A stretch of DNA of 64,000 nt, taken from the NCBI RefSeq assembly GCF_009914755.1, contig NC_060936.1; one strand, given 5' to 3'. Numbering within the stretch: position 1 is the first letter of the stretch; each line of letters starts with the position of its first letter. The notes below the pieces were generated by a model. That model was not told the origin of the DNA, did no database searches, and saw only the letters and a list, made by a program, of their open reading frames with translations. A program made the translations under genes and the position numbers. This document shows, one piece after another, positions 28,795 through 35,810 of the stretch. The stretch comes from the human T2T-CHM13v2.0 reference genome, Homo sapiens.

Positions 28795-28876
28795 CAGGGT
28801 GTGGGGCATCCCTGATCTCCCACCGCCTTAATGCCAGTAGAATTCCCCAATCATTGTGACAACAAAAATATCTCCA
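28795..28876. mobile_element. MER20-like hAT fragment (target of the full-length L1)
   Basis: GCATCCCTG..ATGCCAGTAG..TTGTGACAACAAAAATATCTCCA matches the recalled MER20 segment GTGACAACCAAAAATGTCTCCA. Confidence 0.7.
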
Positions 28877-29784
28877 GGGGGAGGAGCCAAGATGGCCGAA
28901 TAGGAACAGCTCTGGTCTACAGCTCCCAGCCTGAGTGACGCAGAAGACGGGTGATTTCTGCATTTCCATCTGAGGTACCGGGTTCATCTCACTAGGGAGT
29001 GCCAGACAGTGGGCGCAGGTCAGTGGGTGCGTGAGCCGAAGCAGGGCGAGGCATTGCCTCACTCGGGAAGCGCAAGGGGTCAGGGAGTTCCCTTTCCTAA
29101 TCAAAGAAAGGGGTGACGGACGGACGGCACCTGGAAAATCGGGAAAATCGGGTCACTCCCACCCGAATACTGCGCTTTTCCGACGGGCTTAAAAAACGGC
29201 GCACCACGAGATTATATCCCCCACCTGGCTCAGAGGGTCCTACCCCACGGAGTCTCGCTGATTGCTAGCACAGCAGTCTGAGATCAAACTGCAAGGCGGC
29301 AGCGAGGCTGGGGGAGGGGCGCCCGCCATTGCCCAGGCTTGCTTAGGTAAACAAAGCAGCCTGAAACCTCGAACTGGGTGGAGCCCACCACAGCTCAAGG
29401 AGGCCTGCCTGCCTCTGTAGGCTCCACCTCTGGGGGCAGGGCACAGACAAACAAAAAGACAGCAGTAACCCCTGCAGACTTAAATGTCCCTGTCTAACAG
29501 CTTTGAAGAGAGCAGTGGTTCTCCCAGTACGCAGCTGGAGATCTGAGAACGGGCAGACTGCCTCCTCAAGTGGGTCCCTGACCCCTGACCCCCGAGCAGC
29601 CTAACTGGGAGGCACCCTCCAACACGGGCACACTGACACCTCACACTGCAGGGTACTCCAACAGACCTGCAGCTGAGGGTCCTGTCTGTTAGAAGGAAAA
29701 CTAACAAACAGAACGGACATCCACACCAAAAACCCATCTGTACATCACCATCATCAAAGACCAAAAGTAGATAAAACCACAAAG
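28877..29784 (+). promoter_or_regulatory. L1 5'UTR internal sense and antisense promoter region, CpG-rich, YY1 site at 28889-28898
   Basis: AAGATGGCCG YY1 motif; many retained CpGs; ~900-bp UTR length of the young short-UTR type. Confidence 0.85.
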
Positions 29785-30800
29785 ATGGGGAAAAAGCAGA
29801 ACAGAAAAACTGGAAACTCTAAAAATCAGAGCGCCTCTCCTCCTCCAAAGGAACGCAGCTCCTCACCAGCAACGGAACAAAGCTGGACAGAGAATGACTT
29901 TGACGAGCTGAGAGAAGAAGGCTTCAGACGATCAAATTACTCTGAGCTATGGGAGGACATTCAAACCAAAGGCAAAGAAGTTGAAAACTTTGAAAAAAAT
30001 TTAGCAGAATGTATAACTAGAATAACCAATACAGAGAAGTGCTTAAAGGAGCTGATGGAGCTGAAAACCAAGGCTCGAGAACTACGTGAAGAATGCAGAA
30101 GCCTCAGGAGCCGATGTGATCAACTGGAAGAAAGGGTATCAGTGATGGAAGATGAAATGAATGAAATGAAGCGAGAAGGAAAGTTTAGAGAAAAAAGAAT
30201 AAAAAGAAACGAGCAAAGCCTCCAAGAAACATGGGACTATGTGAAAAGACCAAATCTACGTCTGACTGGTGTACCTGAAAGTGATGGGGAGAATGGAACC
30301 AAGTTGGAAAACACCCTGCAGGATATTATCCAGGAGAACTTCCCCAATCTAGCAAGGCAGGCCAACGTTCAGATTCAGGAAATACAGAGAACGCCACAAA
30401 GATACTCCTCGAGAAGAGCAACTCCAAGACACATAATTGTCAGATTCACCAAAGTTGAAATGAAGGAAAAAATGTTAAGGGCAGCCAGAGAGAAAGGTCG
30501 GGTTACCCTCAAAGGGAAGCCCATCAGACTAACAGCGGATCTCTCGGCAGAAACCCTACAAGCCAGAAGAGAGTGGGGGCCAATATTCAACATTCTTAAA
30601 GAAAAGAATTTTCAACCCAGAATTTCATATCCAGCCAAACTAAGCTTCATAAGTGAAGGAGAAATAAAATACTTTACAGACAAGCAAATGCTGAGAGATT
30701 TTGTCACCACCAGGCCTGCCCTAAAGAGCTCCTGAAGGAAGCGCTAAACATGGAAAGGAACAACTGGTACCAGCCACTGCAAAATCATGCCAAAATGTAA
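29785..30800 (+). pseudogene. L1 ORF1p (RNA-binding chaperone), frameshifted near the C-terminus
   Basis: MGKKQNRKTGNSK..REKG..ARREW..YPAKLS; CTAAAGAGC lacks one A (~30723-30725), giving a stop at 30735 instead of the native TAA at 30798-30800. Confidence 0.95.
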
Positions 30801-30863
30801 AGACCATCGAGACTAGGAAGAAACTGCATCAACTAACGAGCAAAATCACCAGCTAACATCATA

Positions 30864-33800: not shown

Positions 33801-34692
33801 AAACCTAGGCATTACCATTCAGGACATAGGCATGGGCAAGGACTTCATGTCTAAAACACCAAAAGCAATGGCAACAAAAGACAAAATTGACAAATGGGAT
33901 CTAATTAAACTAAAGAGCTTCTGCACAGCAAAAGAAACTACCATCAGAGTGAACAGGCAACCTACAGAATGGGAGAAAATTTTCGCAACCTACTCATCTG
34001 ACAAAGGGCTAATATCCAGAATCTACAATGAACTCAAACAAATTTACAAGAAAAAAACAAACAACCCCATCAAAAAGTGGGCAAAGGACATGAACAGACA
34101 CTTCTCAAAAGAAGACATTTATGCAGCCAAAAAACACATGAAAAAATGCTCACCATCACTGGCCATCAGAGAAATGCAAATCAAAACCACAATGAGATAC
34201 CATCTCACACCAGTTAGAGTGGCAATCATTAAAAAGTCAGGAAACAACAGGTGCTGGAGAGGATGTGGAGAAATAGGAACACTTTTACACTGTTGGTGGG
34301 ACTGTAAACTAGTTCAACCATTGTGGAAGTCAGTGTGGCGATTCCTCAGGGATCTAGAACTAGAAATACCATTTGGCCCAGCCATCCCATTACTGGGTAT
34401 ATACCCAAAGGACTATAAATCATGCTGCTATAAAGACACATGCACACGTATGTTTATTGCGGCATTATTCACAATAGGAAAGACTTGGAACCAACCCAAA
34501 TGTCCAACAATGATAGACTGGATTAAAAAAATGTGGCACATATACACCATGGAATACTATGCAGCCATAAAAAATGATGCGTTCATGTCCTTTGTAGAGA
34601 CATGGATGAAATTGGAAACCATCATTCTCAGTAAACTATTGCAAGAAGAAAAAACCAAACACCGCATATTCTCACTCGTAGGTGGGAATTGA
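30864..34692 (+). pseudogene. L1 ORF2p (endonuclease/reverse transcriptase) with a single +1 frameshift
   Basis: MTGSNSHIT.. EN domain; T8 at 31440-31447 instead of T7 splits it into 204-aa and 1010-aa ORFs; FADD RT motif and CCHC knuckle present; span is 3829 nt = 3828+1. Confidence 0.96.
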
Positions 34693-34937
34693 ACAATGAG
34701 ATCACATGGACACAGGAAGGGGAACATCACACTCTGGGGACTGTTGTGGGGTGGGGGGAGGGGGGAGGGATAGCATTGGGAGATATACCTAATGCTAGAT
34801 GACGAGTTAGTGGGTACAGCACACCAGCATGGCACATGTATACGTATGTAACTAACCTGCACAATGTGCACATGTACCCTAAAACTTAAAGTATAATAAT
34901 AAAAAATAAATAAATAAATAAATAAAAAGAAAAAAAA

Positions 34938-35483
34938 TCCAATATCACAAAGAAAAAGCAAGTAGAAGGCGTATGATTAAAATAGATTAAAGATACATAA
35001 TTTAAAGCAATGCATAAATTTTTATTGCTTTCTGGTTTTGAAAGATAGCAATATGACATTTGGAGAAAATGGGGAGGATTTGAATATGACTTGAATGATA
35101 GATGATATTAAGAAATTATTGTCAATTTTTTTAGAAGTTAGAGGGATATTGTTGCTATATGTGTAAATGTCCTTATTCTAGGACCTGTATTCTAAAGTTT
35201 TTAGGAGTGAAGTAGCATGCTGTCTCTAACTTATTTAAACAGTTCAAATATATATATATATATTTAAATTTGTGTCTGTACATGTGTAGAGAAAAGAGAG
35301 ATGGTATATTTGGGAAAATGTTAATAGATGTTGATAAGATTTGTGAATTTATCTTCACTGTATTTTTTTAATTTTTCTGTTTGTAATTTTTCATGACAGT
35401 GAGAGAAATTTCTACTTTTGTAAAAGACTGATTGCAGCATTAAAGATTGTGTAGTTTTTTTATTTCAAAAAATATATATATAT
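34938..35483 (+). mobile_element. Putative L1 3'-transduced segment (old L1M-like sequence) with second poly(A) signal and tail
   Basis: ATTAAA at 35439-35444; A6(TA)n from 35467; ATATCTCCA at 35484-35492 matches 28868-28876. Confidence 0.7.
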
Positions 35484-35810
35484 ATATCTCCAAAGATTTT
35501 CAGTCTAAAATCGGGTAGAATTATGGCAGAAATATATGTTTTTGTTGTTGACATTTCATTTTTCATGATAGGAAAAAACATGCTATTTTTTTTGGGAGGG
35601 GCAGGGAGAAACATTCATTTTATAGCAAGTTAGGTGGGAAAAAGCACCTGGGGACAAAGGAAAAGCAATAGGTTTCCACCTTGATGATCCAAAAGTGAGT
35701 TATGAAGGCTCATAGAATGATCATCATCAGAATTGTTAGGAACCTCAGAAAAATAAGTCCAAATCCCTTATTTTTTAGGCAAACAACAGGGACCTGATGA
35801 TTGCAGAGAC

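What the first reader, a model, noticed from the sequence alone, without database searches (positions are those of the whole stretch)
28864..35492. Full-length L1PA2 appears to carry a ~530-bp 3' transduction, with its TSD hidden by a (TA)n expansion
Seen: the 5' flank ends AAAAATATCTCCA (28864-28876) inside a MER20-like fragment. No copy of it follows the L1 tail at ~34937. Instead ~530 bp of unrelated old-L1M-like DNA follows, then ATTAAA (35439-35444). The run AAAAAA(TA)n starts 22 nt later and ends in ATATCTCCA (35484-35492), the missing TSD. The next bases (AAGATTTTCA) loosely continue the recalled MER20 (GACATTGCCA). Known: L1 often reads through its weak poly(A) signal and co-mobilises downstream DNA. 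Inference: 34938-35466 is a tag from a donor L1 elsewhere in the genome and could identify the source element and any siblings.
Basis: partly seen in the sequence, partly recalled or inferred. Interest (0 to 1): 0.8.

Follow-up and report, generated by a model that had tools for sequence, protein, structure and literature searches.

The report
L1 with orphan 3' transduced tag
A young full-length human L1 retrotransposon seems to have carried about 530 bases of neighbouring DNA with it when it jumped, which is an ordinary event, except that no second copy of that carried DNA exists in this complete genome.

Summary
An old interspersed-repeat fragment ends in AAAAATATCTCCA (28864-28876). A full-length L1 with its own A-rich tail follows (28877-34937). 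Then come 529 bp of other DNA (34938-35466) and ATTAAA (35439-35444). Twenty-two nt later come A6(TA)7T and ATATCTCCA (35484-35492).

The extra DNA is about 470-480 bp of an ancient LINE-1 3' UTR plus about 50-60 bp of non-repeat flank that holds the ATTAAA. The L1 is young: 98% identity to other copies in ORF2.

A single 3' transduction explains every feature best (confidence 0.78). The tag has no second copy in T2T-CHM13 by three searches, so it identifies neither a source nor siblings. I take it to mean the source locus was lost or is absent from this haplotype, because each rival needs several coincidences.

The continuation of the old repeat after the 3' repeat copy is only weakly supported (p about 0.04-0.34). 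The outgroup empty site could not be tested here. This is an ordinary kind of event with one small oddity. Interest is low.

The parts
28805..28876 (+). Fragment of an old ~220-bp interspersed repeat (recalled name MER20). It forms the 5' flank and the target site.
   Evidence: A profile built from 30 genome copies hits 28805-28877, model positions 117-193 of 263, E 9.3e-11. The closest copy, on C3, is 79% identical over query 60-131.
28864..28876 (+). 5' copy of the target-site duplication, AAAAATATCTCCA. It begins with A5, as expected at an L1 endonuclease nick.
   Evidence: Read directly. The 9-mer ATATCTCCA recurs at 35484.
28877..34937 (+). Full-length young L1 (6,061 bp) including its A-rich tail. 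ORF1 is 29785-30735 (316 aa, read as truncated against a recalled full length of about 338 aa). ORF2 is split into 30864-31478 and 31660-34692.
   Evidence: ORFs. The ORF2 3' part is 98% identical to 39 scored copies (40 of 6,049 candidates scored). The 5' UTR is 94-96% identical (40 of 5,284 scored).
34897..34937 (+). L1 tail of the form (TAAA)n TAAAAAG A8, holding six overlapping AATAAA hexamers. On the transduction reading it was copied from the source's genomic tail.
   Evidence: The same TAAAAAG-A8/9 tail occurs in L1 copies on C1 (L079) and C15 (L080).
34938..35466 (+). 529-bp extra segment, the putative transduced tag. About 34938-35405/35420 is an ancient LINE-1 3' UTR in the same orientation. 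The last 50-60 bp is non-repeat flank.
   Evidence: Family matches at 64-84% identity. The family's natural 3' end maps near 35405-35420. ORF2 homology lies upstream on the same strand in 4 of 37 family loci. The segment is unique in the genome.
35439..35444 (+). ATTAAA poly(A) signal, 22 nt upstream of the terminal A-run. The last templated bases are ...TTTC, then A.
   Evidence: Two further ATTAAA hexamers, at 34976 and 34986, would have been read through.
35467..35487 (+). A6(TA)7T: the remnant of the second poly(A) tail merged with the start of the 3' repeat copy and expanded as a TA microsatellite.
   Evidence: Read directly. The 5' copy has A5(TA)1T at the same place.
35484..35492 (+). 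3' copy of the target-site duplication. ATATCTCCA is exact. The full 13 bp matches if (TA)7 is collapsed to (TA)1.
35493..35540 (+). 3' flank. It may be a decayed continuation of the old repeat, but this is only weakly supported.
   Evidence: Joining it to the 5' flank raises the profile score from 31.8 to 37.5 bits; 130 of 3,000 random joins do as well. Anchored extension is reached by 146-513 of 1,500 random segments, depending on gap costs.

Best explanation
This is a single L1 retrotransposition event with a 529-nt 3' transduction.

A young L1PA element sat at another locus, inside the 3' UTR of an ancient LINE-1 and in the same orientation. Transcription ran through the element's own AATAAA-rich tail. 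It continued through about 470-480 nt of the old LINE-1 3' UTR, whose own terminal signal region no longer matches the family's, and through about 35 more nt of flank. It then used ATTAAA and was cleaved 22 nt further on.

The polyadenylated RNA was reverse-transcribed at a nick just before AAAAA in an old repeat on chr12. This gave a 13-bp target-site duplication, AAAAATATCTCCA. Later the second poly(A) tail shrank, and the ATAT at the start of the 3' copy expanded to (TA)7.

Shown here: the order and coordinates of all parts, the identity of the tag, the youth of the L1, the direct repeat, and the uniqueness of the tag in this genome.

Inferred: the read-through itself, the source locus, and the loss of that source. 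The loss may be a deletion in the lineage or an absence from this haplotype.
For: 1. All sequence-internal hallmarks are present: the L1 with its own tail, 529 bp of extra DNA, ATTAAA 22 nt before an A-run, and a direct repeat bracketing the whole unit and starting with A5.

2. The repeat is exact over 9 bp, and over 13 bp apart from the (TA)n. The ancient repeats around it are only 64-84% identical to their relatives. The duplication is therefore young, like the L1 (98% ORF2 identity).

3. The ancient LINE-1's natural 3' end maps near 35405-35420, not at 35466. Alignments to L048 and L071 stop at 35391-35393. Terminal 45-mers of 13 copies score a mean of 11.5 at 35364-35394, against a null of 7.2 +/- 1.2 (n = 272). 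The 22 nt before the A-run are T-rich. The terminal tail therefore does not belong to the old element itself.

4. Nothing resembling the 5' flank or the old repeat's continuation follows the L1 tail at 34938-34947. Profile scores are 31.7-32.1 bits against 31.8 for the flank alone.

5. Placing 35493 next to 28876 extends the old-repeat alignment by 10 bp. This support is weak: 130 of 3,000 random joins do as well.

6. Background: 3' transduction is common. About 25% of insertions carry a transduction (abstract of PMC13009371, seen in the listing). Rates in primates are 2.5-8.8% (passages of PMC4862182).
Against: No second copy of the tag exists in the complete T2T-CHM13 genome.
- the self match plus 16 family-level matches at 69-84%, within query 79-331.
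- self only.
- self only, with up to 3 mismatches.
- a search for a surviving source 5' junction (start of the tag followed within 20 nt by the L1 start) found 0 matches.

A transduced tag is ordinary genomic DNA. Its source should survive even if the source L1 itself was never fixed.

Other points against:
- Two ATTAAA hexamers at 34976 and 34986 would have been bypassed.
- At most 1-6 A remain of the second poly(A) tail.
- The nick site reads AC|AAAAA, not the usual TT|AAAA. The consensus is recalled, not tested.
- The continuation of the old repeat after 35492 is not significant in the anchored test.
- The tool warns that withheld stretches read N, so a hidden source cannot be fully excluded.
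Confidence: 0.78

Rival explanations
1. Two young events. The L1 inserted normally with the 13-bp duplication. Later a separate L1-mediated retro-insertion of a 529-nt polyadenylated RNA landed in the A-run of the L1's tail. That RNA could be an orphan transduction or the 3' end of some transcript.
For: The tail before the tag, TAAAAAG-A8, looks complete. Two other L1 copies (L079, L080) end in the same TAAAAAG-A8/9 directly before their flanks. A-runs lie on both sides of the tag (A8 and A6) and could be an A-only duplication. Poly(A) tails are good endonuclease targets; this point is recalled.
Against: It needs two events at one spot where one event suffices. It also requires a source copy of the tag, and none exists, so it explains nothing more than the single event does.
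Confidence: 0.04
2. The tag is native and old. A 5'-truncated ancient LINE-1 fragment inserted into the old repeat long ago with the AAAAATATCTCCA duplication. The young L1 later landed exactly at its 5' junction.
For: This explains without further assumption why the tag has no near-identical paralog. The tag is mostly the 3' end of an ancient LINE-1 in the right orientation. TCCA occurs on both sides of the young L1 (28873-28876 and 34938-34941).
Against: - The young L1 would have to hit the junction to the base. It would have no duplication of its own beyond 4 nt, at a site that is not T-rich on the bottom strand.
- A 9-13-bp duplication as old as the 64-84%-identical repeats around it would rarely stay exact.
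- The old element's natural end is about 50-60 bp before the A-run, and the bases between are T-rich, not A-rich.
Confidence: 0.04
3. The young L1 inserted next to native DNA with a target-site deletion or without endonuclease, so there is no true duplication. The downstream ATATCTCCA is a chance match helped by the (TA)n.
For: It needs no paralog. A 9-mer recurs within 700 bp at 1.07% of positions in this window. The AT-rich tag (73% A+T) and the microsatellite raise the odds. The old repeat's continuation after 35492 is not significant.
Against: The chance match would have to fall directly after an A-run that itself lies 22 nt after a poly(A) hexamer. It would also have to equal the bases that abut the L1's first base, and start with the A5 expected of a nick site. 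In addition, 34938 onward shows no continuation of the old repeat at all.
Confidence: 0.08

Closest known systems
L1 3' transduction. Papers recalled, not read here: Moran 1999, Goodier 2000, Pickeral 2000, Szak 2003. The mechanism is also described in the passages of Hoyt et al., bioRxiv 10.1101/2021.07.12.451456, read.
   Same: An L1 with its own weak poly(A) region, read-through into 3' flanking DNA, use of a downstream poly(A) signal, a second A-tail, and one target-site duplication around the whole unit.
   Different: No source copy of the tag exists in a complete genome. It would therefore fail the parent-offspring criterion used for the highest-confidence calls in T2T-CHM13: 183 L1 3' events among 971,811 L1s. 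The second poly(A) tail has almost vanished into a (TA)n.
Orphan transduction: a transduced tag inserted without its L1, known from tumour genomes. This is recalled; the term appears in papers listed that I did not read for this point.
   Same: A unique tag ending in poly(A) and bounded by a duplication.
   Different: Here a full-length L1 is attached. 'Orphan' in this report means that the source is missing, not that the L1 is missing.
L1 insertion with target-site deletion, or endonuclease-independent insertion. Recalled: Gilbert 2002, Symer 2002, Morrish 2002.
   Same: No duplication directly after the L1's own tail.
   Different: A duplication does exist 555 bp further on, in the context of a poly(A) signal.

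Membership tests
L1 3' transduction | An L1 3' end with its own A-rich tract, followed by sequence that is not part of that L1 | tested here: met
   The tail ends at 34937 and 529 bp of other DNA follow. That DNA matches an ancient LINE-1 3' UTR family at 64-84% identity, not the young L1.
L1 3' transduction | A poly(A) signal 10-30 nt before the end of the extra sequence, followed by a second A-tail | tested here: met
   ATTAAA lies at 35439-35444 and the A-run starts 22 nt later. Only A6 remains, followed by (TA)7.
L1 3' transduction | A target-site duplication flanking the L1 plus the extra sequence, and none directly after the L1 tail | tested here: met
   ATATCTCCA is exact at 28868 and 35484. 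On the + strand of the window it occurs only there. Only TCCA is shared at 34938.
L1 3' transduction | An endonuclease-type target: the duplication starts in an A-run after the nick | tested here: inconclusive
   The duplication starts with A5, but the two bases before it are AC, not TT. The consensus is recalled.
L1 3' transduction | A source locus elsewhere that holds the tag just 3' of a progenitor L1 or of its empty site | tested here: not met
   Only self matches in T2T-CHM13. No source 5' junction found. Other assemblies are not available here.
L1 3' transduction | An empty orthologous site in an outgroup that lacks the L1 and the tag together | not testable with these tools
   The search tool states, in each own-genome answer (for example), that this genome has no relatives held here. 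The flanks have no paralogous empty site in this genome.
   The element is 6,061 bp. ORF1 starts at element position 909. The ORF2 pieces end at 34692. Both ORFs are broken.
   98% identity over 1,301 bp of ORF2 to all 39 non-self scored copies (40 of 6,049 candidates scored). 94-96% in the CpG-rich 5' UTR.
The 3' UTR reads GAG where I recall ACA for the youngest human subfamily (recall only).
Old ~220-bp interspersed repeat of the 5' flank (recalled name MER20) | Significant match to a profile of genome copies | tested here: met
   E 9.3e-11 at 28805-28877. The family gave 441 first-look candidates, of which 40 were scored.
Old ~220-bp interspersed repeat of the 5' flank (recalled name MER20) | The remaining 54 model columns follow directly after the 3' duplication copy | tested here: inconclusive
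   130 of 3,000 random joins do as well. In the anchored test, 146-513 of 1,500 random segments do as well. No other hit lies near the locus among the 11 hits at E <= 50.

The most novel reading that the evidence does not exclude
The 529-bp tag may be the only surviving copy of a piece of ancestral hominid genome. The source locus, an old LINE-1 3' UTR with a young L1 nested in it, has since been deleted from the human lineage or is missing from the CHM13 haplotype. A retrotransposed back-up would then have outlived its original. If so, it marks a lost, once-active L1 source. It can be used to find that locus in ape or other human assemblies and to date the loss.
Probability: 0.5. Interest if true: 0.3.

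Novelty: new member of a known kind. Interest (0 to 1): 0.22.

Why it matters
Transduced tags are the standard way to trace which L1 copies were active. A tag with no source in a gap-free genome shows the limit of that method for fixed, million-year-old insertions. It also flags a candidate lineage- or haplotype-specific deletion at a former source locus.

For annotation, 34938-35492 belongs to the same insertion event as the L1 and is not native chr12 sequence. Otherwise this is a routine instance of a well-known process, and no gene is involved.

Tried and rejected
1. Plain insertion with a decayed duplication right after the L1 tail. AAAAATCCA can be read as AAAAAT[ATCT]CCA with 4 bp missing. 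Rejected: joining 34938, 34942 or 34947 to the 5' flank gives no gain in the old-repeat profile (31.7-32.1 against 31.8 bits). Anchored extension scores are at or below the null.

2. The idea that the L1/tag junction marks a TT|AAAA site native to the old LINE-1 family. One copy (L008) has ...CTTAAAAAAACTCAACATCA there. L007 and L002 have no A-run at that place, so I dropped it.

3. The idea that ATTAAA at 35439 is the old LINE-1's own terminal signal. The alternative placement of the family's terminal 45 nt at 35409-35431 scores only 9.0, against 11.5 for 35364-35394 and a null of 7.2 +/- 1.2. Rejected in favour of an end near 35405-35420.

4. Finding the source by its tail. Other L1s share (TAAA)n TAAAAAG A8-9 (L079, L080), but their flanks differ from the tag after at most 'TC'. 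This is a lineage-type tail, not a source.

5. Finding a surviving source 5' junction: 0 matches. This is uninformative if the source duplication was short or the whole locus is gone.

7. Szak 2003 and Pickeral 2000 are not held. I therefore have no read figure for how often fixed transductions lack a source.

8. Literature searches found nothing on this locus. CASC18 with L1PA2 gave 0 papers. Table S13 of Hoyt et al. (lower-confidence bins) may list it and could not be seen.
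Full report
**What is there**

Reading the two junctions confirms every coordinate in the finding.
- The 5' flank ends ...CAAC AAAAATATCTCCA at 28876.
- A full-length L1 starts GGGGGAGGAGCC at 28877. It ends in an A-rich tail of the form (TAAA)4 TAAAAAG A8 at 34937.
- The next bases are TCCAATATCAC..., not a copy of the flank.
- After 529 bp (34938-35466) the sequence reads ...ATTAAA (35439-35444), 22 nt, A6 (35467-35472), (TA)7T (35473-35487), CTCCA (35488-35492), then AAGATTTTCAG.
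- ATATCTCCA is therefore present at 28868-28876 and at 35484-35492. The full 13-mer AAAAATATCTCCA matches if (TA)7 is collapsed to the single TA of the 5' copy.

**Is the repeat more than chance?**

The 9-mer occurs 3 times in the 64-kb window on both strands, against 0.55 expected; 2 of 100 shuffles reach 3. On the + strand the 8-mer and 9-mer occur only at these two places. As an empirical control, the 9-mer ending at a given position recurs 20-720 bp downstream at 573 of 53,501 positions outside the locus, or 1.07%.

Chance is therefore about 1 in 100 before the context is counted. The match abuts the first base of the L1. It begins with an A-run. Its 3' copy follows an A-run that lies 22 nt after a poly(A) hexamer.

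**The L1**

Three ATG-started ORFs of at least 100 aa overlap the element: 29785-30735 (316 aa), 30864-31478 (204 aa) and 31660-34692 (1,010 aa). ORF1 is shorter than the roughly 338 aa I recall for an intact one, and ORF2 is split, so I read the copy as no longer coding.

Its last 1,301 bp of ORF2 are 98% identical to all 39 non-self copies scored (40 of 6,049 candidates scored). Its 5' UTR is 94-96% identical to 39 scored copies (40 of 5,284). This is a young primate L1. The label L1PA2 is plausible but was not tested against diagnostic positions.

**The flanks**

A profile built from 30 genome copies of a roughly 220-bp interspersed repeat hits 28805-28877 at model positions 117-193 of 263, E 9.3e-11. 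The family gave 441 first-look candidates, 40 of them scored. The name MER20 is recalled. The target 13-mer is part of that old repeat.

Other copies continue after ...TCTCCA with GACATTGCCA... or GATGTTGCCA... for 54 more columns. I tested whether that continuation follows 35492 or 34937.
- Joined-flank profile scores were 31.8 bits for the 5' flank alone and 37.5 bits with 35493 onward. With 34938, 34942 or 34947 onward they were 31.7-32.1 bits. 130 of 3,000 random joins reach 37.5.
- In an anchored extension with three gap-cost settings, 35493 is reached by 239, 146 and 513 of 1,500 random segments. The 34938-34947 starts are at or below the null.
- The profile finds no second piece near the locus among its 11 hits at E <= 50.

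It is not significant on its own.

**The extra 529 bp**

A search of the window's own genome (T2T-CHM13, 3.1 Gb, 24 contigs) found the self match and 16 others. These were 69-84% identical and confined to query positions 79-331.

More sensitive pairwise alignment to seven of these loci extends the homology from about 34948 to about 35270. A second set of 30 loci, collected with the 3' part of one copy, carries it to 35391-35393.

In that family many copies end together in ...TTTCAAAATAAAAAGTT (query positions 217-223; alignment). The last 45 nt of 13 copies align best to 35364-35394, with a mean score of 11.5 against a null of 7.2 +/- 1.2 (n = 272). A second placement at 35409-35431 scores 9.0. 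The family's natural 3' end therefore maps near 35405-35420.

Four of 37 family loci (L052, L053, L058, L073) have homology to the C-terminal part of L1 ORF2, at 33-53% amino-acid identity. It lies upstream on the same strand. The family is therefore an ancient LINE-1 3' UTR.

In sum, the tag is about 470-480 bp of an old LINE-1 3' UTR in the same orientation as the young L1, plus about 50-60 bp that lie beyond that element's end and hold the ATTAAA. The 22 nt between the hexamer and the A-run are T-rich, not a decayed poly(A).

**The missing source**

- The 529-bp query found no near-identical copy. All 17 first-look candidates were scored.
- The last 227 bp found only itself, plus a self match of its TA run.
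- A 50-mer from the non-repeat end found only itself at up to 3 mismatches, and 0 on the reverse strand or in the controls.
- The 5' and 3' flanks are also single-copy, so this genome holds no paralogous empty site.
- I looked for a surviving 5' junction of a source element, meaning the first bases of the tag followed within 20 nt by the L1 start. There were 0 matches. This is uninformative if the source duplication was short.
- Other L1 copies share the unusual tail. L079 on C1 has (TAAA)5 TAAAAAG A9, and L080 on C15 has (TAAA)8 TAAAAAG A8 followed by TC. Their flanks are unrelated to the tag. This suggests a lineage whose tail is copied from parent to offspring, but it names no source.

**Weighing the explanations**

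A single 3' transduction accounts for every internal feature, and the process is common. About 25% of insertions carry a transduction (abstract of PMC13009371, seen in the listing). Rates in primates are 2.5-8.8% (passages of PMC4862182). Its one failure is the absent source.

Every explanation that makes the event young needs a source too, so the absence does not favour the two-event rival. The two readings that need no source make the tag native, and each requires several coincidences.

The 'old insert' reading needs all of the following:
- the young L1 landing to the base at an old junction, with no duplication of its own;
- an ancient duplication that stayed exact while its surroundings diverged by 16-36% from their relatives;
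- an old element whose tail is separated from its natural end by about 50-60 non-A-rich bases.

The 'chance repeat' reading needs a 1-in-100 match to fall exactly in a poly(A)-signal context.

I therefore hold the transduction at 0.78 and read the absent source as loss of the locus or its absence from this haplotype. Hidden (withheld) sequence in the searched copy is a small residual possibility.

**Relation to what is known**

This is the textbook mechanism, described in the passages of Hoyt et al. (bioRxiv 10.1101/2021.07.12.451456). That study called 183 highest-confidence L1 3' transductions among 971,811 L1s in CHM13, using a modified TSDfinder and confidence bins 0-4. The passages speak of identified parents for the verified events. 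A case without a parent would presumably fall in a lower bin (Table S13, not seen). I found no paper on this locus, which does not show that it is unlisted.

**Verdict**

The event is of an ordinary kind with a small oddity. The decisive tests are the outgroup empty site and a search for the tag in other human and ape assemblies. Neither could be run here.

Noticed in passing
window 28635-28745: A short 5'-truncated L1 3' UTR fragment of about 110 bp with an A-tail. It has the same orientation as the full-length L1 and lies 130 bp upstream of it. It is flanked by an 8-bp direct repeat, AAACAAAT (28627-28634 and about 28743-28750). The DNA it interrupts looks MIR-like, from recall.
   Followed up: partly
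window 34897-34937; L079 (C1:33960121-33960273) and L080 (C15:95712412-95712570): Several young L1 copies share the tail (TAAA)n TAAAAAG A8-9. The repeated AATAAA and the interrupting G look inherited from parent to offspring rather than evolved independently. If so, tail signatures could mark L1 lineages where transduced tags fail.
   Followed up: partly
window 29148-29713: The RefSeq 'enhancer' feature listed by the hub lies wholly inside the 5' UTR of the L1. It is therefore a property of a repeat copy, not of unique chr12 sequence.
   Followed up: no
window 35249-35266: A second (TA)n run inside the tag sits where other copies of the ancient LINE-1 3' UTR carry GT, GA or CA microsatellites (alignment). 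This part of the old UTR is a microsatellite-prone spot across the family.
   Followed up: no
window 35364-35431: The end of the old LINE-1 3' UTR may be partly duplicated. TTTTTCTGTTTGTAATTTTTCA and ATTTCTACTTTTGTAAAAGACT resemble each other, and both resemble the family's terminal segment. The second match is weak (mean 9.0 against a null of 7.2 +/- 1.2).
   Followed up: partly
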